The notes below the pieces were generated by a model, which was not told the origin of the DNA, ran no database searches, and worked only from the letters and a program-made list of their open reading frames with translations. Of a stretch of 64,000 nucleotides of DNA, positions 12,284-49,629 are shown piece after piece. This DNA is from a virus. Positions within the stretch are counted from its first letter, which is position 1; each line of letters starts with the position of its first letter. The stretch is from UHGV virus genome UHGV-0240527, one strand, 5' to 3'. Position numbers and translations under genes: made by a program.

Positions 12284-12748
12284 TTACTTTGGGTATACAC
12301 TGTCAAGGTAAATATCAGCTTCCATTCTGCGTCTGTTTTTAAGACCGTTTGAAGTGACCTTCTCACCTTTGACCGTTACCTTGTTCCACCACTGCATAGC
12401 TTCTGCACAACCTACCTTATTACCAGCGTTGTGGCGCTTGATAAATGTAGAGTCCTGCATAGCCGTGATACCGATGTTGTATGTTTCACTAACAAGGGCA
12501 TCAAACTCATTTTGAGTGGTTGGGGTTTTGATTGCTTTGTTGACTGCACTGACAAACTTTTCAACATCAGCAAGAAGATACTGTTCAGCCTGTGCCTCAG
12601 TAATCTTCATACCCATTTTGACAGGTCTTCCATCAATACGGATTGTCCCGTAACCAATTGTTGGGATTCCGGCAGAATCTTTGTAAGCCTCTAACTCCAG
12701 ACCTTCGAAGAACTTAATAGCGTCTAAACCTTTTCTTGAGAGTTGCAT
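12284..12748 (-). CDS. endolysin, GH24 phage lysozyme (T4/P22 gp19-type)
   Basis: N-terminal EGLELEAYKDSAGIPTIGYG matches the catalytic Glu / Asp / Thr region of T4-type lysozymes; size 154 aa. Confidence 0.8.
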   Translation of the reverse strand: MQLSRKGLDAIKFFEGLELEAYKDSAGIPTIGYGTIRIDGRPVKMGMKITEAQAEQYLLADVEKFVSAVNKAIKTPTTQNEFDALVSETYNIGITAMQDSTFIKRHNAGNKVGCAEAMQWWNKVTVKGEKVTSNGLKNRRRMEADIYLDSVYPK

Positions 12749-13632
12749 TACGCCTCCCCTGCTGGGTTAACTGTAACTGTTGCTGCATTGGATGTTACAG
12801 AGCCACCTGCACCAGTAACTACACAGGTGTAGCTTCCTGCATCAGCAGCGGTTGCACCTTCTTTGGTGTAAGTTGCAGTAGTTGCATCGAGGATGTCTTC
12901 CTCACCTTTCTTCCATTGGTAACCTGTCGCACCTGTTGCCACAACATTCAGTGTTAAGGTCTCACCTTCAGTGATTTCTTGATTGGTTGGTTGCTGAGTG
13001 ATTACTGGAAGTGCATTCACAGTCACTGTTGCTGCATCTGAGGTAACACTTGTTCCACCCTCTCCAGATACAACGCAAGTGTATGAACCAGCATCAGAAG
13101 GTGCTACTGACTGTTTTGTGTAAGTTGCAGAATTGGCACTCGGGATATCCTCACCATCCTTCTTCCACTGATATCCAGTGGCGTTAGTTGCTAGAATGCT
13201 TAGAGTAAGTGTGCCACCCTCATTGACTGTTTGACCTGTTGGTTGCTGAGTAATTGCTGGTGGCTTAATAGCATCCTTCAGCTTAGCATTCAACATTGAG
13301 AACGGCTTAACTCTTGCCAACCATTCACAGTAAATAGTGTCAACATCTTTACCATTGATGATTGCATACTGCAAATCCATGAAGAAATCAGCAGTTCTCA
13401 TCTGTGCACCAACACTGTAAAGGAGTTCATCACTAAAAGGAACTTTGTAGTCTGGTTTGTAATCAAACTCCTCAACTTCTGCAATATCAGCTTCAGGCCA
13501 ATATGAGCTATAGGTGAGTGGTAAAATAGCCTCTTGATATGTTCTAAAATCATATCTCTTACCAGCTTTTACGTTTGCAATGAAGCCCTTCACAAACTCT
13601 TTAAAGTCTGGGTAAGTCTTTGCTTTAATCAT
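12748..13632 (-). CDS. protein with N-terminal domain plus two tandem Ig-like repeats
   Basis: two about 90-aa repeats each containing GATGYQWKK..D/E..SYTCVV (Ig-fold signature); N-terminal 120 aa paralogous to the product of 13629-14000. Confidence 0.6.
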   Translation of the reverse strand: MIKAKTYPDFKEFVKGFIANVKAGKRYDFRTYQEAILPLTYSSYWPEADIAEVEEFDYKPDYKVPFSDELLYSVGAQMRTADFFMDLQYAIINGKDVDTIYCEWLARVKPFSMLNAKLKDAIKPPAITQQPTGQTVNEGGTLTLSILATNATGYQWKKDGEDIPSANSATYTKQSVAPSDAGSYTCVVSGEGGTSVTSDAATVTVNALPVITQQPTNQEITEGETLTLNVVATGATGYQWKKGEEDILDATTATYTKEGATAADAGSYTCVVTGAGGSVTSNAATVTVNPAGEA

Positions 13633-15257: not shown

Positions 15258-15629
15258 ATGAAAAACAGAACAAACAAAGGCCAGTTTAAAAAAGGCCAAT
15301 CTGGAAACCCATCTGGAAGACCAAAAGGCTCTCGCAACAAAAGCTCACTTGTAAAAGCTCAACTGACCATTGACAATTCTGCTGAGTTTGCTGCAAAGTT
15401 ATTTGAAGCGATTGTTACAAGGGATGCTGCTAAGCTTGCAGAGTTCGGGTTAAACACAGATGACGTAACCATCAAGAGTATGATTGAGGTCGGTAAAACT
15501 ATCTTTACTCACTCAGCAGGTGAGATGAAAGCACTTGCAGCAGACACTAAGAAGACTCCTGATAATGGTGGTCAACAACAGACAGATAACAAACCAACGT
15601 TCTCTGCTGTAGCGACTCTTAAAAAATAA
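15258..15629 (+). CDS. hypothetical basic protein with N-terminal GNPSGRPKG motif
   Basis: ORF track; lysine/arginine-rich N-terminus; motif read directly, function not assigned. Confidence 0.55.
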   Translation: MKNRTNKGQFKKGQSGNPSGRPKGSRNKSSLVKAQLTIDNSAEFAAKLFEAIVTRDAAKLAEFGLNTDDVTIKSMIEVGKTIFTHSAGEMKALAADTKKTPDNGGQQQTDNKPTFSAVATLKK

Positions 15630-15647
15630 TTTTAAAAGGTGTTGACA

Positions 15648-15688
15648 GACTCTACAAAGTTGCTCTAAAGTCTGTCACATCAAACAAC
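15648..15688 (+). promoter_or_regulatory. candidate promoter (TTGACA) embedded in 9-bp inverted repeat TGACAGACT/AGTCTGTCA
   Basis: inverted repeat arms flank the -35/-10 region upstream of 15711 ORF. Confidence 0.35.
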
Positions 15689-15710: not shown

Positions 15711-17126
15711 ATGAGCGAATTATTTAAACATGCGCACCTTCATGCAGGTCGAACTGAAAATGGTGCTGTAAACCATACTTCATCAATGTCTGCTCTTGTA
15801 GACTTTTACAAAGCTGCTGGTTCAAGCCGTAGCAATGTAGAAATCTTACCAGACTTGTTCTACAAAGCTTTGCGTGAGGATGTTGATGTTGCAGTTCGTA
15901 TTTTGCTTCATATGCGAGATGTACGAGAAGGTATGGGTGAGCGTAAAGCCTTCAGAACTGTTTTGCTTCAAGCAATTGAAGATAAAGTTTTAGAGCCTAC
16001 ACAGGTTCTTCGCATTATGGATAAGATTGCAGAACTTGGTCGTTTTGATGACTTCAAAATCTTCGTGGGTACTTGTTTCGAGACAGATGCCTTCAAACAT
16101 TTAGAAGCAGCATTACTAGACCCTGCAACAGCAGGTTTGGCGGCTAAGTGGTTACCACGAGTCAAACCACGTCATAAGCAGTTTGTAAAACGTTTCTGCA
16201 AGTTTGCCAACTTGAGCGAGAAAGAGTACCGCACACTGTTATCTGCACTATCTGATACAGTTGAGCAAAAAATCTCTGCTAATGAGTTTGGCAAGATTGA
16301 CTACAGTAAGGTTCCCTCACTTGCTGCTGCACGTTACCAAAAACTGTTTAACCGTAAGGATGGAGAACGTTACAAAGCTTACATTGAGTCCTTATCAAAA
16401 GGTGAGGCTAAGATTAATGCTGGTGCTGTTTACCCATACGATGTGATTAAATCTGTCAAGCATGGTAATGCAGATGTTGCTAATGAGCAGTGGAAAGCAC
16501 TACCAAACTGGATGGCAGAAGGTGAAAACATCTTGTGTATGTCTGATGTATCAAGTTCAATGTCTTGGGTGAATTTTGGCTCCATTACTGCTCTGGATAT
16601 TGGTGTATCACTTGCCTTGTATGTAGCAGAACGCAATACAGGTTGCTTTAAGAATGAGTTGATGGTTTATTCAACAAACCCTCACTTCATCGAACTGAGT
16701 GGTGATTTACGAAACCGTCATCGTCAGGTGATGCGACACGTTGAATATGGCTCAACTAACTTACAAGCAGCTTTTGACCGCATTCTTGAGACAGGCAAAA
16801 GAAACAACTTGACTCAGAAAGATATGCCAAGTAAGCTTATCATCTTCTCCGATATGGAGTTTAATCAGGTTGATGGGGCTAACGGTCGTACAAACTTTGA
16901 AGCAATTCAGAGTAAGTACAAAAAAGCTGGATATGAGATGCCACAACTGGTATTCTGGTACTTAGCAAACCGTAATGGTACTTGCGAAGTATCTGTTAAG
17001 GATAACGGTGTAGCAATGGTATCAGGGTTCTCTCCAGCCACTTTAAAAGCTCTGCTTGGTGGTGAGAAGTTTGACCCAATCAGTGTAATGCTCAAAGCAG
17101 TAATGATTGACCGTTATATCTGGTAA
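15711..17126 (+). CDS. vWA-domain protein with Ro60/TROVE-like architecture (candidate RNA-binding protein)
   Basis: C-terminal MIDAS-like DxSxS (MSDVSSSMSW) and downstream FSDMEF; about 270-aa helical N-terminal region; family assignment is from architecture only. Confidence 0.45.
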   Translation: MSELFKHAHLHAGRTENGAVNHTSSMSALVDFYKAAGSSRSNVEILPDLFYKALREDVDVAVRILLHMRDVREGMGERKAFRTVLLQAIEDKVLEPTQVLRIMDKIAELGRFDDFKIFVGTCFETDAFKHLEAALLDPATAGLAAKWLPRVKPRHKQFVKRFCKFANLSEKEYRTLLSALSDTVEQKISANEFGKIDYSKVPSLAAARYQKLFNRKDGERYKAYIESLSKGEAKINAGAVYPYDVIKSVKHGNADVANEQWKALPNWMAEGENILCMSDVSSSMSWVNFGSITALDIGVSLALYVAERNTGCFKNELMVYSTNPHFIELSGDLRNRHRQVMRHVEYGSTNLQAAFDRILETGKRNNLTQKDMPSKLIIFSDMEFNQVDGANGRTNFEAIQSKYKKAGYEMPQLVFWYLANRNGTCEVSVKDNGVAMVSGFSPATLKALLGGEKFDPISVMLKAVMIDRYIW

Positions 17127-17144
17127 AAAGTTTTAAAAAGGGTA

Positions 17145-17173
17145 TTGACAATGTGTTTAATACCCTTTAATAT
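17145..17173 (+). promoter_or_regulatory. sigma70-type promoter (TTGACA, 17 bp, TAATAT) flanked by inverted repeat AAGGGTATT/AATACCCTT
   Basis: hexamers and spacing read directly; lies upstream of tRNA array. Confidence 0.5.
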
Positions 17174-17235
17174 GTTCTACATAGAAACGAAATGAGAGCT
17201 TTTCTAAGATACTGAAAAATATTTTAAAAAAGTTC

Positions 17236-17264
17236 TTGACAACCACTAAAAAATAATGTTAAAG
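17236..17264 (+). promoter_or_regulatory. candidate second promoter upstream of tRNA array (TTGACA, weak -10)
   Basis: TTGACA at 17236-17241; -10 ambiguous. Confidence 0.3.
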
Positions 17265-17291
17265 TGTTTACATAGAGTTTGAAAAGTTTAT

Positions 17292-17368
17292 CTCTGTTTA
17301 GCTCAGCTTGGTAGAGCGTTCCGTTTGGGGCGGTAAGGCCGGAGGTTCAAGTCCTCCAACAGAGACCA
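17292..17368 (+). tRNA. tRNA-Pro (anticodon UGG)
   Basis: manual cloverleaf: 7-bp acceptor CTCTGTT/AACAGAG, T-loop TTCAAGT, anticodon loop TTTGGGG, CCA encoded. Confidence 0.65.
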
Positions 17369-17375
17369 AATTAAT

Positions 17376-17453
17376 GTTCCAGTAGACAAAATGGTAAAGT
17401 CACCACTCTTTCAAAGTGGATATCTGAGGGTTCAAATCCCTTCTGGAACGCCA
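17376..17453 (+). tRNA. tRNA-Glu (anticodon UUC)
   Basis: 7-bp acceptor GTTCCAG/CTGGAAC, anticodon stem CCACT/AGTGG, loop CTTTCAA, CCA encoded. Confidence 0.7.
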
Positions 17454-17543
17454 GTTTTGACAGAAGACCAATTACAGCAAACTTAATCTACTCATCTGAA
17501 AGTTAATCGGACAAAGAAGATATTTGGTCTGGTCATTAAGAAT

Positions 17544-17620
17544 TGCGGGTATAGAGAAAGGGCGTCTCACATGTCTCATTAGCATGGTATCGGCAGGTTC
17601 GACTCCTGCACCCGCCTCCA
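17544..17620 (+). tRNA. tRNA with CAU anticodon (Met, initiator or Ile2); non-canonical features
   Basis: T-arm GCAGG/CCTGC and 6 of 7 acceptor pairs with 1:72 mismatch; anticodon loop CTCATTA; 3-nt 8/9 linker. Confidence 0.45.
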
Positions 17621-17703
17621 AATTTACAGAAGACCGTTTACAGCAATATTTATTAAATTTTTAGCGGAAAAATTGAAAGATACGGTCTGGTAATACTAAA
17701 CAT

Positions 17704-17780
17704 GGTTAGGAAGCACATAAGGTATGTGCGGTCGCCTGTTAAGCGAATGGCACAGGGTTCGAATCCCTGACTAACCGCCA
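17704..17780 (+). tRNA. tRNA-Asn (anticodon GUU)
   Basis: acceptor GGTTAGG, D-stem GCAC/GTGC, anticodon loop CTGTTAA, T-loop TTCGAAT, CCA encoded. Confidence 0.7.
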
Positions 17781-17849
17781 AATTTAGGAGAGAAGTGATT
17801 GCTCACCGATTTGTAAGGTGCAAGTCCTTAGCCTGAATAGAAATTAAAT

Positions 17850-17937
17850 GTGTCGTTATCCCGTAGATGGTAGCGGTGGGGACTGTAAATCCCTTGTCAT
17901 TGAGACTCGGTAGGTTCGACTCCTACACGGCACACCA
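17850..17937 (+). tRNA. tRNA-Tyr (anticodon GUA), long variable arm
   Basis: acceptor GTGTCGT/ACGGCAC, anticodon stem GGGGA/TCCCT, loop CTGTAAA, 88 nt, CCA encoded. Confidence 0.7.
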
Positions 17938-17942
17938 ATAAA

Positions 17943-18019
17943 GGCTATGTAGTTTAACTGGAGAAAATACTCCCCTGTCACGGGAGATGATGTGAGTTCA
18001 AGTCTCATCGTAGCCGCCA
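17943..18019 (+). tRNA. tRNA-Asp (anticodon GUC)
   Basis: acceptor GGCTATG/CGTAGCC, anticodon stem CTCCC/GGGAG, loop CTGTCAC, CCA encoded. Confidence 0.75.
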
Positions 18020-18448
18020 ATTTTGAGAGGGCTGTTTAGCCCATCCCTTAAAGAGTTCTTACGAGTATTCTTTAAGGGAGCAGAAGACCAAATACAGCAA
18101 GAATGTATGAAATTTCAAGCCAATTTAATTTTGAAAATTTAAAACTTGGTCTGGCTCAACAAATTTACAGAAGGCCGTTTACAGCAAAACTTAAACAATC
18201 TATTTCTCCGGTAAAGAAAAGGCGAAGGTTCGATTCCTTCACTCGGCAGATGTCGAGTTGGTGTAATGGTAGCACTTAAGATGATAAACAACGGTCTGGT
18301 AATTACCTTTGTAGATAAGTTATTAAGCTTACTTGTGAGTATGCGACCACAAAGGGTGAATGGGTAAATTCTAGATTTAAACCCAAAAAGGCACATCGCT
18401 ACAGACCTTAAGCAAGTCTGGGTAGCTTATCTACAAAGATAATTTAAT

Positions 18449-18524
18449 GGAAGTGTAGCAGAATGGTGATGCGGCAGACTTTTAATCTGACAGGCGATGG
18501 GTTCGAATCCCTCCACTTCTACCA
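18449..18524 (+). tRNA. tRNA-Lys (anticodon UUU)
   Basis: acceptor GGAAGTG/CACTTCT, anticodon loop CTTTTAA; T-stem imperfect; paralog of the CUU Lys tRNA. Confidence 0.6.
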
Positions 18525-18528
18525 ATAT

Positions 18529-18605
18529 GGTTCAGTCGCAGATAAGGTAATGCAAGGGTCTCATAAGCCCTATGAATGTGGGTTCGATTCCCATCTGAAC
18601 CTCCA
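18529..18605 (+). tRNA. tRNA with CAU anticodon (Met or Ile2)
   Basis: perfect 7-bp acceptor GGTTCAG/CTGAACC, anticodon stem AGGGT/GCCCT, loop CTCATAA, CCA encoded. Confidence 0.7.
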
Positions 18606-18606
18606 A

Positions 18607-18682
18607 GCTGGTATAGTTAAGAAGGTTATAACACTCCCCTGATAAGGGAACATCGGTGGTTCGATTCCACCTACCAGTACCA
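18607..18682 (+). tRNA. tRNA-Ile (anticodon GAU)
   Basis: acceptor GCTGGTA/TACCAGT, D-stem GTTA/TAAC, anticodon loop CTGATAA, T-arm GGTGG/CCACC, CCA encoded. Confidence 0.75.
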
Positions 18683-18697
18683 ATTTCAATAAAGTTG

Positions 18698-18726
18698 TTG
18701 ACATTGAGATGTGACTACTTTATAGT
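18698..18726 (+). promoter_or_regulatory. sigma70-type promoter inside tRNA array (TTGACA, 17 bp, TATAGT)
   Basis: hexamers and spacing read directly. Confidence 0.55.
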
Positions 18727-18930
18727 AACCTTAGTTTTCGTTGCGTAGCGTCTATTTTGCAAATTTAAAATAAATGCAAACGACAATGTTTTTCTGGCAG
18801 TAGCTTGATAGGCTAAACACCAGTGAGGTCTTCCAATCCCTCATCAAAGAATTTGGCGTACTCGCCCACGGTATGATTAATAAGGTGGGCATCTTTAAGG
18901 GCTTTCTAAGAGAGTCTTTAAAGATAATTA

Positions 18931-19012
18931 CGGGGCGTATCTCAGCGGTCTTCTAAACCGCCGTTAACCGAGTAAGTGGAGTATGCGGGTTCGAGTCCTG
19001 CCGCCTCGACCA
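18931..19012 (+). ncRNA. tRNA-like element: perfect acceptor stem and T-arm but no canonical D-arm; internal hairpin with loop CTTCTAA (UCU)
   Basis: 7-bp acceptor CGGGGCG/CGCCTCG, T-arm GCGGG-TTCGAGT-CCTGC, CCA encoded; body cannot be folded into a standard cloverleaf. Confidence 0.4.
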
Positions 19013-19026
19013 ATTTTGGAGAAATC

Positions 19027-19374
19027 ATGAAAACTTGTATTAGGTGCAAACTTAGCAAGGATGAAAATGATTTCTACATGAAAGATGGTAGGAGAACTCA
19101 TTCATACTGTAAAAAGTGTGTTAATGAGCAAACCATAGAAAGACAAAGAGCACTTAAACTCTTAGCTATTGAGTACAAAGGTGGGGTTTGTCATGATTGT
19201 GGTAAGAAGTATCATCCAGCAGTGTATGACTTCCATCATTTGAATCCTTCAGATAAAGATTTTAACATTGGTCATAGGAAAAGCCTTAAGTTCTCTCAAG
19301 AACTAAAAGATGAACTTGACAAATGTGTTTTGCTATGTTCAAATTGCCATAGGGTAAGACATGCAAAATATTAG
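19027..19374 (+). CDS. HNH family homing endonuclease
   Basis: motifs CxxC..CxxC, DFHHLNPSDKDFNIG and CSNCHRVRH typical of HNH nucleases; start moved to ATG with GGAG RBS (track start is an upstream GTG inside the tRNA-like element). Confidence 0.7.
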   Translation: MKTCIRCKLSKDENDFYMKDGRRTHSYCKKCVNEQTIERQRALKLLAIEYKGGVCHDCGKKYHPAVYDFHHLNPSDKDFNIGHRKSLKFSQELKDELDKCVLLCSNCHRVRHAKY

Positions 19375-19511
19375 TTAGCAGATTACTTAGACGACCTTAG
19401 CGGGTCTTCCTGTAGGGAGGTGGTCTGTATCTCATGTTTTCCAGAACATGTAAATAATCTGAGAAGGGGCTTTACAGTGTTGAGATAATACGGTAAGCTT
19501 CGAATTATAGT

Positions 19512-19594
19512 ATGGGACGATGTTAAGACTCTAAGGCATGAGCAACGGCTTCCAACACCGTTTCAAAGGGGTTCAACTCCTCCGTCCCATGCCA
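19512..19594 (+). ncRNA. tRNA-like element with aberrant anticodon arm (9-nt loop CTTCCAACA containing UCC); possible degenerate tRNA-Gly paralog
   Basis: perfect 7-bp acceptor ATGGGAC/GTCCCAT and T-arm with CCA, but non-canonical D region and loop size. Confidence 0.4.
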
Positions 19595-19607
19595 AAGTCT
19601 TATTAGG

Positions 19608-19695
19608 GGTAGGTAGCGGCTAATGGTAGCCAAACTGTCTTGAAAACAGTTGCCACTGTAGAGATACGGTGAGGGTTCGACTCCTTTACTTACCG
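19608..19695 (+). tRNA. tRNA-Ser (anticodon UGA), class II
   Basis: acceptor GGTAGGT/ACTTACC, anticodon stem ACTGT/ACAGT, loop CTTGAAA, long variable arm, G73; CCA not encoded. Confidence 0.65.
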
Positions 19696-19852
19696 CCTAA
19701 TAAGATTTAAAGCCAAGCTTCATTCGGATGTTGCTTTGGTATCCCTCGTGTATTGTCGTACACACTGATAAAACACCTAGTAGGTGTCACGGAGAAGAGA
19801 TAATATCAAGCTCTCCAAAGGTTCTAGTCACCGGATTAAACAAGACTATGCA

Positions 19853-19875
19853 AAGACCTATTTAGGTCTTTTTAG
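19853..19875 (+). terminator. putative intrinsic terminator within tRNA array
   Basis: AAGACCTA..TAGGTCTT hairpin followed by TTTT. Confidence 0.45.
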
Positions 19876-19952
19876 AGGGCTTCTAAGGTTATTACAGCTT
19901 GTTGTGGAACCTTGTTGCTTAGGTTCTTAGAAGTTCTCTAAAAAGATTTAAT

Positions 19953-20029
19953 GCACCTATAGCCCAACTGGTAGAGGCAGCAGACTTAGAATCTGCTCAG
20001 TGTGAGTTCGAATCTCTCTAGGTGTACCA
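19953..20029 (+). tRNA. tRNA-Leu (anticodon UAG) with short variable arm
   Basis: acceptor GCACCTA/TAGGTGT, anticodon stem GCAGA/TCTGC, loop CTTAGAA, A73, 77 nt, CCA encoded. Confidence 0.6.
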
Positions 20030-20036
20030 AATTAAT

Positions 20037-20112
20037 GCAGGTGTAGCAGAATGGTTATGCGGCTGACTCTTAATCAGTAAGACGATGGGTTCAATTCCCT
20101 CCACCTGTACCA
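20037..20112 (+). tRNA. tRNA-Lys (anticodon CUU)
   Basis: acceptor GCAGGTG/CACCTGT, anticodon stem GCTGA/TCAGT, loop CTCTTAA, CCA encoded. Confidence 0.65.
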
Positions 20113-20118
20113 AACATT

Positions 20119-20194
20119 GGGGATGTAGTTTACATGGTTAAAACATAAGTTTTGCAAACTTAAGTACAGGGTTCAATTCCCTGCTTCTCCACCA
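20119..20194 (+). tRNA. tRNA-Ala (anticodon UGC)
   Basis: G3:U70 wobble pair present in acceptor; D-stem GTTT/AAAC; anticodon stem TAAGT/ACTTA, loop TTTGCAA; CCA encoded. Confidence 0.7.
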
Positions 20195-20200
20195 ATTAGT

Positions 20201-20275
20201 GCATCCATAGTTTAAACGGGAAAATTACAGTCTTCCAAACTGAGGTTGAGGGTTCGATTCCCTCTGGATGCTCCA
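20201..20275 (+). tRNA. tRNA-Gly (anticodon UCC)
   Basis: perfect acceptor GCATCCA/TGGATGC, T-arm GAGGG/CCCTC, anticodon loop CTTCCAA, CCA encoded. Confidence 0.7.
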
Positions 20276-20281
20276 AACAAT

Positions 20282-20358
20282 GCTGCTTTCGTATAATTGG
20301 CTATTACACATCCCTTGTAAGGATGGAAATGCAGGTTCGAGTCCTGTGAGCAGCACCA
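20282..20358 (+). tRNA. tRNA-Thr (anticodon UGU)
   Basis: acceptor GCTGCTT/GAGCAGC, anticodon stem CATCC/GGATG, loop CTTGTAA, CCA encoded. Confidence 0.75.
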
Positions 20359-20454
20359 ATTCAGAGGTCAAGTGAAAGACCGCTTTGAGTCAACTGAAGA
20401 CCGTAACAAATACCACGGAGTTGAGTTAGCGGCACAACTTCAGACCTCTTTCAT

Positions 20455-20529
20455 ACTCGCTTAGTTTATATGGTAAAACATCACCATTACAAGATGAAGA
20501 AAAAGGTTCAAGTCCTTTAGTGAGTACCA
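20455..20529 (+). tRNA. tRNA-Val (anticodon UAC)
   Basis: acceptor ACTCGCT/AGTGAGT, D-stem GTTT/AAAC, anticodon loop ATTACAA, T-arm AAAGG/CCTTT, CCA encoded. Confidence 0.7.
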
Positions 20530-20530
20530 T

Positions 20531-20608
20531 GTTCCAGTATCCCAATTGGCAGAGGATGCAAGCTCAAACCTTGTATTAGTGACGGTTCGAATCCGTCTTG
20601 GAACACCA
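20531..20608 (+). tRNA. tRNA-Leu (anticodon CAA) with short variable arm
   Basis: acceptor GTTCCAG/TTGGAAC, anticodon stem GCAAG/CTTGT, loop CTCAAAC, A73, 78 nt, CCA encoded. Confidence 0.55.
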
Positions 20609-20613
20609 ATTTT

Positions 20614-20686
20614 GCAGGATTAGTTCAAATGGAAAGAGCAACAGTCTACGAAGCTGTTAATAGGGGTTCGAATCCCTTATCCTGCG
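20614..20686 (+). tRNA. tRNA-Arg (anticodon ACG)
   Basis: perfect acceptor GCAGGAT/ATCCTGC, D-stem GTTC/GAGC, anticodon loop CTACGAA; CCA not encoded. Confidence 0.7.
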
Positions 20687-20706
20687 CTAGATAAAAAGGT
20701 GATACT

Positions 20707-20949
20707 ATGCAAACATTAACAGTAGTTGAACATGAAAACTGTGAGAGTATTGAGTTTGTCAGGGTCATTGGTGTTGAACACCACATTTTCTTAAAAGTGG
20801 GATACTTATGTGACCCCGCTAGAGTAGAAAGATTTATACGTGATTGTTTTGGTGGTAGACATCTGAAGAGTGTTATTTTTGAGACAGTTTTACCAGAAGG
20901 TTTAGAAACGAATAATAACATTTACCTCCTTACGAGGATTAGACAATGA
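20707..20949 (+). CDS. hypothetical protein (embedded in tRNA array)
   Basis: ORF track; AAAGGTGA RBS. Confidence 0.45.
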   Translation: MQTLTVVEHENCESIEFVRVIGVEHHIFLKVGYLCDPARVERFIRDCFGGRHLKSVIFETVLPEGLETNNNIYLLTRIRQ

Positions 20950-21503
20950 GATACTTAAAGTATGCTTCATGGATTTTCTTAGCTTTGTTAGAGCCATTTG
21001 CAGCAATCTTAGCAGTTATCTTAGCACCTTTTGTAGTTCCATTCTACAGTGAGAAGAAAGGACACTTACCTTTCGGGTTCAGATGGATGGAGACATATGA
21101 CAACCCAATTGATGGTGATGAAGGTCACGTTAAAAGATGGGCTAATATTAGATGGATTGGTAAGCTGGGTGTCTACATGCAGAGAGTTGGATGGCTCTGG
21201 AGAAACAAAGCTTATAACTTCTCTTACCATGTATTAGGAAGAGATGTAAAAGATGTTACTAAGTGGAAAGGTAATATCAACGTAAGTTCTGACCCCGAAG
21301 ATAATCAGACAGGTTATCTCCTAATGTGGAACAGTAATGCTTGGGGATTATTCGCTTTTATCCCATCAATTAAAATCTTTGGTAAACAATTTTACTGGAG
21401 AATTTATATTGGATGGAAACTAAAAAGTGTTGTCCCAGAAGAAAGAGCATTCTCAAGGGAAAGAGTTATGTTGGCATTCTTTATTCATCCACTGAGAAAG
21501 TAA
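20946..21503 (+). CDS. hypothetical membrane protein (embedded in tRNA array)
   Basis: ORF track; hydrophobic N-terminus WIFLALLEPFAAILAVILAPFVVPF; start overlaps upstream stop. Confidence 0.5.
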   Translation: MRYLKYASWIFLALLEPFAAILAVILAPFVVPFYSEKKGHLPFGFRWMETYDNPIDGDEGHVKRWANIRWIGKLGVYMQRVGWLWRNKAYNFSYHVLGRDVKDVTKWKGNINVSSDPEDNQTGYLLMWNSNAWGLFAFIPSIKIFGKQFYWRIYIGWKLKSVVPEERAFSRERVMLAFFIHPLRK

Positions 21504-21511
21504 AGATTTAA

Positions 21512-21587
21512 AGGGGATTAGTTTACAAGGTTAAAACCTCGGTCTTTGAAATCGAAGAAGTTGGTTCAATTCCAACATCCCCCGCCA
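21512..21587 (+). tRNA. tRNA-Gln (anticodon UUG)
   Basis: unpaired 1:72, G73, D-stem GTTT/AAAC, anticodon stem TCGGT/ATCGA, loop CTTTGAA, CCA encoded. Confidence 0.7.
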
Positions 21588-21589
21588 AT

Positions 21590-21668
21590 GCTCCATTACT
21601 CCAATTGGCAGAGAGGCCAGACTTAAAATCTGTGTTATGTATCGGTTCGAATCCGATATGGAGTACCA
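21590..21668 (+). tRNA. tRNA-Leu (anticodon UAA) with short variable arm
   Basis: acceptor GCTCCAT/ATGGAGT, anticodon loop CTTAAAA, T-arm ATCGG/CCGAT, A73, 79 nt, CCA encoded. Confidence 0.55.
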
Positions 21669-21673
21669 AATTT

Positions 21674-21749
21674 AGCGGTATAGCATAACTGGCAATGCAG
21701 CAGCCTCTGAAGCTGTCCTATTAAGGTTCAAATCCTTATGCCGCTGCCA
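21674..21749 (+). tRNA. tRNA-Gln (anticodon CUG)
   Basis: acceptor AGCGGTA/TGCCGCT, D-stem GCAT/ATGC, anticodon stem GCAGC/GCTGT, loop CTCTGAA, G73, CCA encoded. Confidence 0.7.
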
Positions 21750-21780
21750 CTTCTAAGGATTCTTGCGAGAGTCCTTAAAT

Positions 21781-21856
21781 GTGGCCTTATCATAAATGGT
21801 AATGACCCATGCTGTGAACATGGTCTATACGGGTTCAAATCCCGTAGGTCACCCCA
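21781..21856 (+). tRNA. tRNA-His (anticodon GUG)
   Basis: acceptor GTGGCCT/AGGTCAC, D-stem TCAT/ATGA, anticodon stem CCATG/CATGG, loop CTGTGAA, C73, CCA encoded. Confidence 0.7.
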
Positions 21857-21861
21857 ATTTA

Positions 21862-21936
21862 TAGTCCAAGTAGCTTATATGGTTAAAGCGCGTGTCTGAA
21901 AAACATGAGAAGAGGGTTCAAATCCCACTGGACTAC
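21862..21936 (+). tRNA. tRNA-Phe (anticodon GAA)
   Basis: perfect acceptor TAGTCCA/TGGACTA, anticodon stem CGTGT/ACATG, loop CTGAAAA; 3' terminus ambiguous. Confidence 0.6.
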
Positions 21937-21954
21937 CAATTTCAAAGGTGCTTA

Positions 21955-22689
21955 ATGAAAGAGATGACAGAACAAGGTAAGGAGATTTTTAATCTCTTAA
22001 AAACCGGTAAAGGGTTCTCTAACCCACTGATTACTGGTGCAGCAGTTCTCGGTGGAACCGTAGCTGCTTCTACATCACTTGTAAGCTCTATTAGTTCTGT
22101 AACAGACCCTACAATGAAGGAGAAACTTGTTGCTGCTGGACTTACAACAGTCCTTCTAAACAGCTTTACAACAAGCCTTACAAGCACTACAGCAACTACT
22201 AAAACTCTGACAGACTACGGTCAAAAGTCTATTGATGAGTTTTCATCACGTATGCAGGTAGCAAAGGGATACTCCAATGTTATGGGTGCAGCAGGAGAAC
22301 AAGTTGGTTGTACACCATTCAGTGGTATTATGGGTGTTGCTACAGAGTATGGTCAAAAAGCTATTGACATGATGAACAGTACACTGGATAGTGTTAATGG
22401 TGTATTAAGTGACTTACAAGATGCTATTGATAAGGGTCTTGATACTGTTTCTGATTTAGCTAATCAGGCTGTTAGTAAGATTAATGAAGGTATTTCAAAG
22501 ATTACAGCTTATGCAGATGAAGTTGTGCAGATGATTGAAGAAGAAGCTGCCCTTATTGCAGAGTACCTTAAAACGAATATCAATGGGTTCTTAGCAGGTA
22601 TCTTACCAGACTGGTTTGATGATGCTTGTAAAACTGGTGTAATTGACACTATTGCAACACCAGAAATGAAGAACGCATTACAGAAATAA
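21955..22689 (+). CDS. hypothetical Ser/Thr-rich protein (embedded in tRNA array)
   Basis: ORF track frame; start moved to ATG 21955 after AAAGGTG RBS because the track start overlaps tRNA-Phe. Confidence 0.5.
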   Translation: MKEMTEQGKEIFNLLKTGKGFSNPLITGAAVLGGTVAASTSLVSSISSVTDPTMKEKLVAAGLTTVLLNSFTTSLTSTTATTKTLTDYGQKSIDEFSSRMQVAKGYSNVMGAAGEQVGCTPFSGIMGVATEYGQKAIDMMNSTLDSVNGVLSDLQDAIDKGLDTVSDLANQAVSKINEGISKITAYADEVVQMIEEEAALIAEYLKTNINGFLAGILPDWFDDACKTGVIDTIATPEMKNALQK

Positions 22690-22691
22690 AT

Positions 22692-22784
22692 GGAAGATTA
22701 ACCCTAAAAGGTAAGGGAGCAGTTTGCTAAACTGCCAGTAGCTGAGAAATCGGTGTACCAGTTCAAGTCTGGTATCTTCCTCCA
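22692..22784 (+). tRNA. tRNA-Ser (anticodon GCU), class II
   Basis: perfect acceptor GGAAGAT/ATCTTCC, anticodon stem GCAGT/ACTGC, loop TTGCTAA, about 21-nt variable arm, CCA encoded. Confidence 0.7.
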
Positions 22785-22788
22785 ATTT

Positions 22789-22864
22789 GAATCCGTGACA
22801 GAAATGGCTATGTGCCTGTCTGCAAAACAGGTTTATAAGGGTTCGAGTCCCTTCGGATTCTCCA
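22789..22864 (+). tRNA. tRNA-Cys (anticodon GCA)
   Basis: perfect acceptor GAATCCG/CGGATTC, anticodon stem CCTGT/ACAGG, loop CTGCAAA, U73, CCA encoded. Confidence 0.75.
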
Positions 22865-49269: not shown

Positions 49270-49629
49270 TTATGGGAACAAGCACTTAATGTCATCATTT
49301 TTGAAAACAAAACTTGTGTAGTTATGACCATCAACATCCAGCCAAACAGCCTGAACATCTACACCATCAAGGTTGTGGTAAAGCTCTTTGATGAAGTGGT
49401 CTTTTACAATCTGGCTGCTAGTTGTTTCCAGCTTAATGTTTGAGATTGCTGAACCTACAGCCATATAACCCATGACACGTTTCTTCTCAGTATGCTTAAT
49501 CTTACCATCTTTGTAAGCCATAATGAGATTGGAGAGAATCTTCACACCATAATACTTTTCAAGGTGAGTTGGTACGCCATAAAAGCCTAATGCGAAGTTT
49601 TCAGAGTGGATAATATTTTCACGTTTCAT
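49270..49629 (-). CDS. hypothetical protein
   Basis: ORF track. Confidence 0.5.
   Translation of the reverse strand: MKRENIIHSENFALGFYGVPTHLEKYYGVKILSNLIMAYKDGKIKHTEKKRVMGYMAVGSAISNIKLETTSSQIVKDHFIKELYHNLDGVDVQAVWLDVDGHNYTSFVFKNDDIKCLFP

What the first reader, a model, noticed from the sequence alone, without database searches (positions are those of the whole stretch)
15711..17126. vWA-domain protein with Ro60/TROVE-like architecture encoded immediately upstream of the tRNA array
The 471-aa product has a MIDAS-type DxSxS motif (MSDVSSSMSW) in its C-terminal third and a helical N-terminal region of about 270 aa. That two-part layout matches Ro60/TROVE-family RNA-binding proteins and their DUF2828-type relatives. 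In bacteria Ro60 orthologs (Rsr) pair with adjacent Y RNAs that carry tRNA-like modules. Here the gene is followed by an array that contains, besides canonical tRNAs, tRNA-like elements with perfect acceptor/T-arms but aberrant bodies. If confirmed, this would be a phage-encoded Ro-like ribonucleoprotein system.
Basis: partly seen in the sequence, partly recalled or inferred. Interest (0 to 1): 0.75.

Follow-up and report, generated by a model that had tools for sequence, protein, structure and literature searches.

The report
Phage Ro60-like protein with Y-like RNAs
This Felix O1-type phage gene encodes a divergent relative of the Ro60 RNA-binding ring protein, and beside it, hidden among the tRNA genes, lie four small RNAs (one with a rearranged tRNA-like body) that look like its RNA partners, giving a testable RNA-protein machine behind a known phage anti-defence gene.

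Summary

What I add is the candidate RNA partner. The long RNA (18167-18305) has a closing stem, a UACAGCAA motif, then a T arm, a loop-closed acceptor hairpin and a D arm. That is the permuted tRNA-like order of bacterial YrlA. Three short RNAs (17460-17537, 17626-17695, 18080-18159) have the same stem and motif but no tRNA module.

Covariance models built without the window find all four. The same RNAs flank this gene family on the same strand in 57 of 75 distant viral loci. In 78 canonical TROVE loci the stem/motif module is absent, but the tRNA-like module is present. Protein-RNA binding is inferred, not shown.

The parts
15642..15671 (+). Sigma-70-like promoter upstream of the Ro-like gene (TTGACA, 18-nt spacer, TAAAGT)
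   Evidence: Consensus scan, 10 of 12 matches. This is a pattern match only.
15711..17126 (+). Ro60-like RNA-binding protein gene, 471 aa (DUF2828 + DUF7788; PHROG 850; ortholog of Bas63 gp130 and wV8 gp047)
15711..16505 (+). N-terminal all-helical (HEAT-like) domain, residues 1 to about 265. It is the structural counterpart of the TROVE ring.
16530..17075 (+). vWA domain (DUF7788), residues 274-455, with the MIDAS DxSxS at nt 16545-16559 (D279, S281, S283) plus T349 and D381
   Evidence: Pfam. Invariant columns. hhalign against a canonical TROVE/vWA_Ro60 alignment gives probability 82% and E 1e-5 over residues 237-443.
17145..17265 (+). Two sigma-70-like promoters (17145-17173 and 17236-17265) that would drive the operon of tRNAs and Y-like RNAs
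   Evidence: Consensus scan, 10 of 12 matches each. No terminator-like site on the + strand between them and 18690.
17460..17537 (+). Short Y-like RNA 1: stem AGACCAA (17465-17471) / UUGGUCU (17524-17530) with UACAGCAA straight after the 5' strand. It lies flush between tRNA-Glu and tRNA-Met.
   Evidence: Model R3, built only from distant loci, gives 42.0 bits and E 1.3e-7. Pattern scan. Fold.
17626..17695 (+). Short Y-like RNA 2: stem AGACCGU / ACGGUCU plus UACAGCAA, between tRNA-Met and tRNA-Asn
   Evidence: R3 gives 36.7 bits and E 2.6e-6. R2 gives 23.7 bits and E 0.025 with the tRNA module deleted. The change relative to RNA 1 is compensatory (AA/UU to GU/AC).
18080..18159 (+). Short Y-like RNA 3: stem AGACCAA / UUGGUCU plus UACAGCAA, directly upstream of the long form
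   Evidence: R3 gives 21.3 bits and E 0.015. Pattern scan. Fold.
18167..18305 (+). Long YrlA-like RNA. Closing stem 18172-18179 / 18290-18297; UACAGCAA 18180-18187; anticodon/V-like hairpin; T arm 18224-18240; loop-closed acceptor-like hairpin 18241-18258; D arm 18260-18276.
   Evidence: It is the only hit in 64 kb to a strict permuted-tRNA pattern. Model R2, built without the window, gives 80.2 bits and E 1.1e-13. The single-sequence MFE adopts the same architecture. The family shows covariation.
17292..22864 (+). Array of 25 tRNA genes in which the Y-like RNAs are embedded
   Evidence: ARAGORN and Rfam tRNA hits.

Best explanation
The gene encodes a divergent Ro60-type protein: a helical ring-like domain plus a vWA/MIDAS domain, in the DUF2828/DUF7788 sequence family. 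I propose that it forms ribonucleoproteins with four phage RNAs encoded just downstream.

The RNAs appear to be transcribed with the tRNA operon from the promoters at 17145 and 17236. The short ones sit 6-8 nt from the flanking tRNAs, so they would be released by the same RNase P and 3'-end processing that matures those tRNAs (inferred).

Each RNA has a closing 5'/3' stem immediately followed by single-stranded U(U/A)C(A/C)GCAA. I infer that this stem and motif are the protein-binding module, the counterpart of the stem plus GNCGAA/CGAA module of canonical Y RNAs.

The long RNA also carries a circularly permuted tRNA-like module (T arm, closed acceptor hairpin, D arm), as in YrlA. By analogy with Rsr/Y RNA/PNPase, and with phiLo Ro60/Yrl which attenuates PNPase, this module would tether the ring to host tRNA- or RNA-handling enzymes, or act as a gate or decoy (inferred by analogy).

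The RNP would then control RNA decay or repair during infection. The Bas63 ortholog is experimentally a counter-defence factor against Ppl (from a paper, not tested here).

Shown here: the fold, the family, the RNA structures with covariation, and the gene-RNA linkage. Inferred: binding, processing and the downstream effector.
For: Protein:
- Foldseek's top 11 hits are all Ro60/TROVE, E 1.5e-8 to 4e-6, TM up to 0.63.
- hhalign against canonical TROVE proteins gives probability 82% and E 1e-5.
- The MIDAS residues are invariant.
- Relatives are annotated 'Ro-like RNA binding protein' in mycobacteriophages.

RNA:
- RNAalifold on 10 distant sequences predicts 23 pairs, 20 of them with compensatory changes.
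- On 23 sequences that exclude the window, 94.4% of cells are paired, against 60% when shuffled and about 40% when slid, and 21 of 23 pairs show double changes.
- The short-form stem is 87.9% paired on a structure-blind MAFFT alignment, against about 40% when slid.
- Models trained without the window recover all four window RNAs.

Linkage:
- All 41 R1 hits are on the gene's strand.
- Within 1 kb of the gene, the stem-plus-motif pattern is found 83 times on the + strand and once on the - strand, and 57 of 75 distant loci have at least one.
- 30 of 43 loci with no tRNA still have the element.
- The family also occurs in Mycobacterium phage Snenia (83.5 bits, 100 nt after the gene), Yersinia P778, Campylobacter CPX and Listeria LMSP-25.

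Protein and RNA modules vary together:
- In 78 canonical TROVE viral loci, R3 (stem plus motif) has 0 hits at E<=0.1.
- In the same loci, R2 finds 111 hits, all on the + strand and almost all within about 1.4 kb upstream of the gene. About 70% of them cover only the tRNA-like module; the rest span the whole model at low scores of 30-47 bits.
- The R2 hit in Bxz1 coincides with the Rfam YrlA sub-threshold hit.

Function: deleting Bas63 gp130 sensitises the phage to Ppl. The Listeria phage locus has an RtcB-type 'tRNA splicing ligase' about 1.3 kb downstream of the Ro-like gene.
Against: - There is no direct evidence that the RNAs are expressed, processed or bound by the protein.
- The Pfam TROVE model does not match any of 40 family members. 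The N-terminal half is related to Ro60 only by predicted fold.
- Rfam YrlA does not hit the window RNA even at E<=10, and the canonical GNCGAA motif is absent.
- Folding energy is unremarkable for the long RNA (z -0.94) and for the short ones (z -1.4 to -2.2).
- In the preprint, gp130 alone, expressed from a plasmid or from the T7 genome without the Bas63 RNAs, restores T7 plaquing on Ppl. So at least that phenotype does not need the phage RNAs, unless host RNAs substitute for them.
- 18 of 75 distant loci lack a pattern hit within 1 kb.
- The CM-derived alignment leans towards the modelled structure.
Confidence: 0.65

Rival explanations
1. The protein is a Ro60-fold anti-defence factor that acts without a dedicated phage RNA, for example by binding host RNAs or the Ppl protein directly through its vWA/MIDAS face. 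On this view the neighbouring structured elements serve the tRNA operon rather than the protein.
For: gp130 alone rescues T7 on Ppl hosts, from a plasmid or from the T7 genome. vWA/MIDAS domains are classic protein-interaction modules, as in the Ku80, midasin and integrin hits. 18 of 75 loci lack an element within 1 kb.
Against: The RNA elements follow the gene, not the tRNAs: 30 of 43 tRNA-free loci still have one within 1 kb. The strand bias next to the gene is 83 to 1. The RNA's stem/motif module switches together with the protein family: R3 has 0 hits in 78 TROVE loci. This is hard to explain if the protein and RNA are unrelated.
Confidence: 0.2
2. The stem-plus-CAGCAA elements are cis-acting signals such as RNase processing sites, attenuators or terminators, or they are selfish miniature repeats. 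They are not trans-acting RNAs.
For: In the window they sit exactly in the spacers between tRNAs and are repeated four times. Their predicted stability is modest. There are no expression data.
Against: They have no U-tract and are not called as terminators. They are conserved in sequence motif and covarying stem across phages of Proteobacteria, Actinobacteria, Firmicutes and Campylobacter, hosts with different transcription and processing machinery. They are tied to one protein-coding gene family. The long form carries a complete tRNA-like module that is also detected upstream of canonical Ro60 genes, where YrlA lies.
Confidence: 0.1
3. Element 18167-18305 is only a rearranged or decayed tRNA pseudogene, and the resemblance to YrlA is coincidental.
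For: Some GenBank records annotate it as tRNA-Thr or tRNA-Asn. Rfam tRNA gives a partial 22-bit hit. Its anticodon-like hairpin has a 7-nt loop.
Against: The permuted order with a loop-closed acceptor stem is conserved with compensatory changes in very distant phages. It is always framed by the same stem and motif. Of 252 Felix O1-like records with a match, 240 hold at least 80% of a 301-nt stretch that contains it. A pseudogene would not keep 94% pairing across this divergence.
Confidence: 0.05

Closest known systems
Ro60/Rsr (Pfam TROVE PF05731 + vWA_Ro60 PF25045) with Y RNAs. Examples: Xenopus Ro60 (1yvp, 2i91), D. radiodurans Rsr (2nvo), Thermus phage phiLo Ro60 with Yrl1/Yrl2 (9l5y; PMC12135203), mycobacteriophage Bxz1 gp220.
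   Same: Both have the two-domain fold of a helical ring plus a vWA domain with a MIDAS motif. Both have small structured RNAs encoded within about 1 kb on the same strand. Phage examples are already known.
   Different: There is no TROVE HMM match. The protein is shorter, 471 aa against 530-580. Sequence-level similarity is limited to the last helix and the vWA domain. The partner RNA has a different proposed binding module.
YrlA / YrlB bacterial Y RNAs (Rfam RF02553; Chen et al. 2014, PMC4201824)
   Same: The long form has the YrlA layout: a 5'/3' stem, a conserved single-stranded motif, a V region, a T arm, a loop-closed acceptor-like stem and a D arm. It lies within 4 kb of the protein gene on the same strand. 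It is accompanied by shorter RNAs that lack the tRNA module, as YrlB accompanies YrlA. My model's tRNA-like part detects RNAs upstream of canonical Ro60 genes, where YrlA lies. The Snenia member gets a sub-threshold RF02553 hit of 39.3 bits.
   Different: The motif is U(U/A)C(A/C)GCAA placed after the stem, instead of GNCGAAN0-1G. The stem module is undetectable at canonical Ro60 loci. The window RNA is not hit by RF02553 at all. The short forms are interleaved with tRNA genes.
Bas63 (JohannRWettstein) gp130, PhageMaP preprint (PMC11482910)
   Same: It is the direct ortholog, with the same synteny immediately upstream of tRNA-Pro. The preprint already reports it as structurally Ro60-like, as a counter to Ppl defence, and speculates that some neighbouring 'tRNAs' are Y RNAs.
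   Different: The preprint does not identify the RNAs. The candidates found here are not among the annotated tRNAs. They lie in spacers, and the long one lies partly under the small opposite-strand ORF bas63_0137, which I consider doubtful.
Pfam DUF2828 (PF11443) / DUF7788 (PF25043); PHROG 850 'RNA-binding protein'; actinophage 'Ro-like RNA binding protein' (for example Snenia gp54 and LeBron gp53)
   Same: The window protein is a full member by HMM score. Mycobacteriophage members carry the same RNA family right after the gene.
   Different: Nothing essential differs. The family itself has no experimentally defined RNA ligand in the literature I could search.

Membership tests
DUF2828/DUF7788 protein family (PHROG 850) | Match to PF11443, PF25043 and phrog_850 above threshold | tested here: met
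   DUF7788 scores 148.9 bits (cut-off 27.1). DUF2828 scores 105.5 bits (cut-off 29). phrog_850 matches at E 7.8e-184 over the full length.
Ro60/TROVE family | Match to the Pfam TROVE domain (PF05731) | tested here: not met
   There is no TROVE hit at E<=1 for the window protein, nor at E<=5 for any of 40 family members. The control, Bxz1 gp220, matches TROVE at E 9.4e-50.
Ro60/TROVE family | Match to the Ro60-type vWA domain (PF25045) | tested here: inconclusive
   The window protein has no hit. 5 of 40 relatives match weakly, with a best E of 4.7e-4. hhalign of the family against a canonical Ro60 alignment gives probability 82% and E 1e-5 over the vWA domain and the preceding helix.
Ro60/TROVE family | Fold: a helical-repeat ring followed by a vWA domain, over the whole chain | tested here: met
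Ro60/TROVE family | MIDAS metal-site motif DxSxS...T...D in the vWA domain | tested here: met
   D279, S281, S283, T349 and D381 are invariant in 40 sequences.
Ro60/TROVE family | Binds Y RNA on the outer surface and misfolded RNA ends in the central cavity | not testable with these tools
   This needs RIP/CLIP, EMSA or a structure of the complex.
YrlA-type Y RNA (RF02553), for 18167-18305 | Score at or above the Rfam gathering threshold (69 bits) | tested here: not met
   There is no RF02553 hit at E<=10 on 18060-18330. A family member in phage Snenia reaches 39.3 bits. The canonical Bxz1 YrlA itself reaches only 32.5 bits, so the threshold is strict.
YrlA-type Y RNA (RF02553), for 18167-18305 | Architecture: a 5'/3' stem enclosing a V region, a T arm, a loop-closed acceptor-like stem and a D arm, with tRNA-like T and D loops | tested here: met
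   Strict pattern. MFE structure. Consensus structure with covariation. GGUUCGAUUCC T arm, and U8, A14, GG and A21 in the D region (alignment).
YrlA-type Y RNA (RF02553), for 18167-18305 | GNCGAAN0-1G (CGAA) motif near the 5' end | tested here: not met
   The conserved motif is UACAGCAA (family consensus UuCAGCAA) directly after the 5' stem strand. Model R3 of this module has 0 hits in 78 canonical Ro60 loci.
YrlA-type Y RNA (RF02553), for 18167-18305 | Encoded within 4 kb of the Ro60-type gene on the same strand | tested here: met
   It lies 1.04 kb downstream on the + strand. In distant loci there are 83 + strand hits and 1 - strand hit within 1 kb.
YrlA-type Y RNA (RF02553), for 18167-18305 | Bound by the Ro60 ortholog; carries tRNA modifications; RNase P substrate | not testable with these tools
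   Experimental.

The most novel reading that the evidence does not exclude
DUF2828/DUF7788 proteins and the stem-plus-CAGCAA RNAs form a second, very widespread Ro/Y-type ribonucleoprotein lineage. The protein family occurs in 710 of 50,697 phage records, from Proteobacteria, Actinobacteria, Firmicutes and Campylobacter phages. In this lineage the protein's RNA-recognition surface and the RNA's binding module have changed together, while the tRNA-like effector module was kept. Multiple short forms are produced by tRNA-operon processing. This RNP, rather than the protein alone, would be the physiological counter-defence and RNA-control machine of these phages. It would also give the first handle on the uncharacterised DUF2828 family, whose Pfam model is also reported in plant and animal papers.
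Probability: 0.45. Interest if true: 0.75.

Novelty: new variant of a known kind. Interest (0 to 1): 0.6.

Why it matters
Ro60/Y RNA particles are a classic RNA-surveillance machine and are known in a few phages. The ortholog of this gene has an experimentally shown anti-defence phenotype against Ppl, but no mechanism.

Identifying concrete candidate partner RNAs turns a speculation into direct experiments: RIP, EMSA, RNA deletions and structures. Their coordinates, structure and a conserved motif that differs from the canonical CGAA motif are now defined.

The protein family and the RNA stem/motif module switch together while the tRNA-like module stays. This is a natural experiment on how Ro-type rings recognise their RNAs.

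The result also corrects annotation. Small opposite-strand ORFs and some odd 'tRNA' calls in hundreds of Felix O1-like genomes overlap these RNAs.

It is not a new kind of system. The protein's Ro60 likeness and phage Ro/Y RNPs were already known.

Tried and rejected
- Sequence search of the PDB with the protein gave nothing. With the family profile, Ro60 reached only E 1.1. Structure prediction was needed.
- NCBIfam gave no family.
- Rfam scans of the array (E<=1) and of the RNA region (E<=10) gave no Y RNA or YrlA hit. Gathering-threshold scans of nine distant loci gave only tRNAs and one group I intron.
- Folding-energy z-scores for the four RNAs are not significant. The case rests on covariation and linkage.
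- I first read the GGUCUGG 3' strand as a possible analogue of the vertebrate GGUCCGA Ro-binding strand. I dropped this because it is on the opposite strand of the stem and is not conserved outside Felix O1-like phages.
- The CCA-ended aberrant tRNA-like elements (18931-19012 and about 19513-19596) are not matched by either RNA model. I do not consider them Y RNAs.
- The upstream DUF5681 gene (15258-15629) is conserved only in close relatives, so it is not a general component of the system.
- The R3 hit at 49405-49468 (-) lies inside an ORF and is probably chance.
- The Chen 2014 supplementary phage list and the 2020 Annual Review were not available. I therefore could not check whether any DUF2828-type phage was among their 22 phages.
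Full report
**What the window is.** The gene region is 98% identical in DNA to Felix O1-like phages such as wV8 and fjerdesal, with 251 matching records. So the window is a Felixounavirus genome segment. In wV8 the gene is gp047, named 'RNA-binding protein' in RefSeq. It has the same neighbours as here: a DUF5681 gene upstream and tRNA-Pro downstream. In phage Bas63 (JohannRWettstein) the syntenic gene is bas63_0130.

**The observation.** The ORF 15711-17126 (+) of 471 aa is present. It is followed by 25 same-strand tRNA genes. The MSDVSSSMSW string contains the DxSxS of a MIDAS site. D279, S281, S283, T349 and D381 are invariant in a 40-sequence alignment of relatives with 41-89% identity.

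**The protein.**
- Pfam gives DUF7788 (residues 274-455, E 1.7e-43) and DUF2828 (E 3.9e-30), and no TROVE.
- PHROG 850 'RNA-binding protein' matches end to end.
- None of 40 relatives hits TROVE even at E<=5. Five weakly hit the Ro60-specific vWA model.
- Sequence searches of the PDB are not significant.
- An AlphaFold2 model built from the alignment is confident, with pLDDT 88.7 and pTM 0.88. It is all-helical to about residue 265 and then alpha/beta.
- Foldseek against the PDB returns full-length Ro60/TROVE structures as its 11 best hits (E 1.5e-8 to 4e-6, about 520-550 alignment columns, TM up to 0.63). vWA-only hits follow at E >= 2e-3.
- As a canonical control, mycobacteriophage Bxz1 gp220 matches TROVE and vWA_Ro60 strongly.
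- A profile-profile comparison of the two families gives probability 82% and E 1e-5, but only over the last helix and the vWA domain.

My conclusion is that this is a Ro60-type fold in a separate, divergent sequence family. tblastn finds that family in 710 phage records from many host phyla. Mycobacteriophage annotators already call it 'Ro-like RNA binding protein'.

**What was already known.**
- A 2024 preprint (PMC11482910) reports that Bas63 gp130 is structurally Ro60-like and lies directly upstream of the tRNAs. [quoted passage not shown] It also shows that deleting gp130 sensitises the phage to the Ppl defence, and that gp130 alone, moved to a plasmid or into T7, rescues T7 on Ppl hosts.
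- Phage Ro60 with Y-like RNAs is established for phiLo (PMC12135203).
- YrlA-like RNAs were predicted next to TROVE genes in 22 phages (PMC4201824).

**The RNAs in the window.** Reading the spacers in the array showed a repeat, CAGAAGACCnn-UACAGCAA ... nnGGUCUGG, at four places (family D11).
- All four fold into the same stem. The variable pairs change in a compensatory way: AA/UU, GU/AC, and G.U.
- The fourth copy encloses a T arm (GAAGGUUCGAUUCCUUC), an acceptor-like hairpin closed by a tetraloop (ACUCGGC-AGAU-GUCGAGU) and a D arm (GGUGUAAUGGUAGCAC). These are preceded by a 5-bp hairpin with a 7-nt loop.
- This is a circularly permuted tRNA order, and it is exactly the order described for YrlA: V, T, 'AS', D inside a 5'/3' stem.
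- A strict pattern for 'T arm, closed acceptor hairpin, D arm' finds this one site in the 64-kb window on either strand.

**The same RNA elsewhere.**
- I fetched 75 viral contigs that encode relatives with 39-48% amino-acid identity. The strict pattern hit 13 of them, always on the gene's strand. Ten hits in nine loci had a loop-closed acceptor stem, most within about 1.5 kb of the gene and three of them 2.3-3.3 kb away.
- All of these share the frame: a 7-9 bp stem of variable sequence, then U(U/A)C(A/C)GCAA, an A-rich linker, the tRNA-like module, the 3' stem strand and usually UGAUA.
- RNAalifold on ten sequences predicts the closing stem and the T, AS and D helices. Twenty of 23 pairs show compensatory changes.
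- A covariance model (R1) found 41 hits in 30 of the 75 loci, all on the + strand. They included tandem copies and short versions.
- On 23 long-form sequences without the window, 94.4% of cells are paired, against 60% for shuffles and 37-45% for slid partners. Twenty-one of 23 pairs show double changes. The caveat is that this alignment was fitted to the model.
- Model R2, built from those 23 sequences, finds the window RNA at 18167-18305 with 80.2 bits and E 1.1e-13. It is the only strong hit in 64 kb.
- For the short form, a structure-blind MAFFT alignment of 29 distant sequences shows the stem 87.9% paired, against 35-48% when slid.
- Model R3, built from that alignment, finds the window's three short copies: 42.0 bits (E 1.3e-7), 36.7 bits (E 2.6e-6) and 21.3 bits (E 0.015).

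**Linkage to the gene.**
- A simple pattern (7-bp stem, motif, partner within 150 nt) occurs 83 times on the + strand and once on the - strand within 1 kb of the gene in the 75 distant loci. Farther away the counts are 40 and 28, in 4.3 times more sequence. Fifty-seven loci have at least one near the gene.
- Hits are split evenly between upstream (40) and downstream (43). Thirty of the 43 loci without any tRNA still have one. So the elements follow the gene, not the tRNA arrays.
- The RNAs also occur in annotated phages from other host phyla. In Mycobacterium phage Snenia the long form scores 83.5 bits, lies 100 nt after the 'Ro-like' gene and is flanked by two short forms. Yersinia phage P778 has one long and two short forms. 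Campylobacter phage CPX has a short form 14 nt before the gene. Listeria phage LMSP-25 has three tandem copies in the gap before the gene, and an RtcB-type ligase about 1.3 kb downstream of the gene.

**Relation to canonical YrlA.**
- Rfam's YrlA model (RF02553) gives sub-threshold hits to the Snenia RNA (39.3 bits) and to the region upstream of Bxz1 gp220 (32.5 bits). My R2 also hits that Bxz1 region, but only with its tRNA-like part.
- In 78 viral loci that encode canonical TROVE proteins, R2 finds 111 hits. All are on the + strand and almost all lie within about 1.4 kb upstream of the gene. Roughly 70% are confined to model positions about 35-117, the tRNA-like module. The rest span the whole model at low scores of 30-47 bits.
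- R3, the stem-plus-CAGCAA module, finds nothing in those loci at E<=0.1. The simple pattern shows no strand bias there, 57 against 62.
- So the tRNA-like module is common to both systems, while the stem/motif module switches with the protein family. This is the main reason to propose that the stem/motif module is the protein-binding site. That step is inference.

**How it probably works.**
- Near-consensus promoters at 17145 and 17236 precede the array, and no terminator-like site follows on the + strand before 18690. The RNAs are therefore probably co-transcribed with the tRNAs.
- Short RNAs 1 and 2 are separated from the flanking tRNAs by only 6-8 nt. tRNA 5' and 3' processing would release them (inferred).
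- By analogy with Rsr/Y RNA/PNPase and phiLo Ro60/Yrl/PNPase, the ring would bind the stem/motif. The tRNA-like module would recruit or block host RNA enzymes (inferred).
- The experimentally supported output is resistance to Ppl. Because gp130 alone suffices for that in T7, the RNAs may modulate the protein rather than be strictly required. This keeps my confidence in the full RNP model at about 0.65.

**Verdict.** The added value is a defined, covarying RNA family that is a variant of YrlA/YrlB. It is specific to DUF2828-type Ro-like genes. It is absent from Rfam 15 at threshold, and I did not find it in the searchable literature. I class the finding as a new variant of a known kind and score interest at 0.6.

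**Side observation.** Between tRNA-Ile and the aberrant tRNA-like element lies a strongly structured 200-nt region (z -4.44). It carries a conserved 10-codon frame with no start codon that resembles a tmRNA tag. Details are under 'noticed in passing'.

Noticed in passing
window 18727-18930 (+); tag-like frame 18776-18808: A strongly structured, unannotated region of about 200 nt (fold z -4.44) lies just after a near-consensus promoter (18698-18726). It contains a 10-codon frame with no start codon, GCA AAC GAC ... GCT TGA = ANDNVFLAVA*, preceded by AAAAUAAAU. This resembles the E. coli tmRNA tag ANDENYALAA (recalled from memory). The frame is kept, with synonymous or conservative changes, in unrelated elements: a lambdoid E. 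coli prophage between the Q antiterminator gene and the holin gene (ANEEMYLAVA*), Klebsiella phage XDRKpn-1 (ANDNTFLAVA*), the N4-like Shigella phage B2 (ANDDVVLMAA*) and an Erwinia Kolesnikvirus (ANDAQFLAVA*). A blastn search with 18690-19020, which also includes the tRNA-like element, matches 742 phage records; some of those match only that tRNA-like part. A search with 18727-19015 matches 338 of 5,426 E. coli genomes, mostly on plasmids or at unannotated chromosomal sites (one inspected is a prophage). It is not the host ssrA gene. The listed phage and E. coli hits align at about 18767-18891. ARAGORN calls no tmRNA, Rfam gives only weak tmRNA hits, and no tRNA-like domain was found next to the lambdoid, Klebsiella or Shigella copies. 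It may be a tmRNA-like tag template that lacks its tRNA-like domain. This is unexplained and deserves its own study.
   Followed up: partly
window 18931-19012 (+): A tRNA-like element without a D arm. It has a 7-bp acceptor stem with G3.U70, an A73-CCA end, a 5-bp anticodon-like stem with loop CUUCUAA (UCU), a long variable region and a good T arm. Rfam tRNA scores it at 31.7 bits, and ARAGORN does not call it. Bas63 has a canonical tRNA-Arg(UCU) at this position and no HNH gene. wV8 annotates the element as 'tRNA-OTHER', a pseudogene.
   Followed up: partly
window 18976-19374 (+), probable true start ATG at 19028: An HNH endonuclease ORF is inserted in the tRNA array right after the aberrant tRNA-Arg-like element. 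It is absent from Bas63 and present in wV8. The listed GTG start overlaps the tRNA-like element. This looks like a homing-endonuclease cassette that replaced the local tRNA.
   Followed up: partly
window about 19513-19596 (+): A second aberrant tRNA-like element. It has a 7-bp acceptor stem, a degenerate D region, a 5-bp stem with a 9-nt loop, an imperfect T arm and a GCCA end. It is conserved identically in Bas63. At relaxed settings ARAGORN calls an overlapping odd 'tRNA-Pyl(cta)'.
   Followed up: partly
window 18139-18396 (-) and 18103-18279 (+); wV8 gp048; bas63_0137: Small 'hypothetical protein' ORFs annotated in relatives overlap the long Y-like RNA, mostly on the opposite strand. They are probably annotation artefacts. 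Some records call the same place tRNA-Thr or tRNA-Asn.
   Followed up: no
L086 (Listeria phage LMSP-25); L085 (Mycobacterium phage Snenia): In the Listeria phage, the Ro-like gene is followed within about 1.3 kb by a metal-dependent phosphohydrolase gene and an RtcB-type 'tRNA splicing ligase' gene. This echoes the bacterial rsr-yrlBA-rtcBA operon. In Snenia, a band-7-like membrane protein gene and a tRNA-Tyr gene lie upstream.
   Followed up: no
window 49405-49468 (-): A weak hit of the short-form RNA model (22.8 bits, E 0.006; stem GGCUG/CAGCC plus UUCAGCAA). It lies inside a 119-aa ORF on the same strand and is probably chance.
   Followed up: partly
window 17137-17168 (+): A 12-bp hairpin lies directly after the stop codon of the Ro-like gene and overlaps the -35/-10 of the first tRNA-operon promoter. 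It could be a terminator coupled to the promoter.
   Followed up: no
window 12748-13632 (-): A 294-aa protein with two tandem Ig-like repeats (…TQQPTxQxxxEGxTLTLxxxATxATGYQWKK…). It corresponds to the 'tail protein' or outer capsid decoration gene of relatives.
   Followed up: no
L037 11696-11922 (+): A group I intron (Rfam 71.5 bits) lies in a distant viral contig that also carries the Ro-like gene and Y-like RNAs.
   Followed up: no
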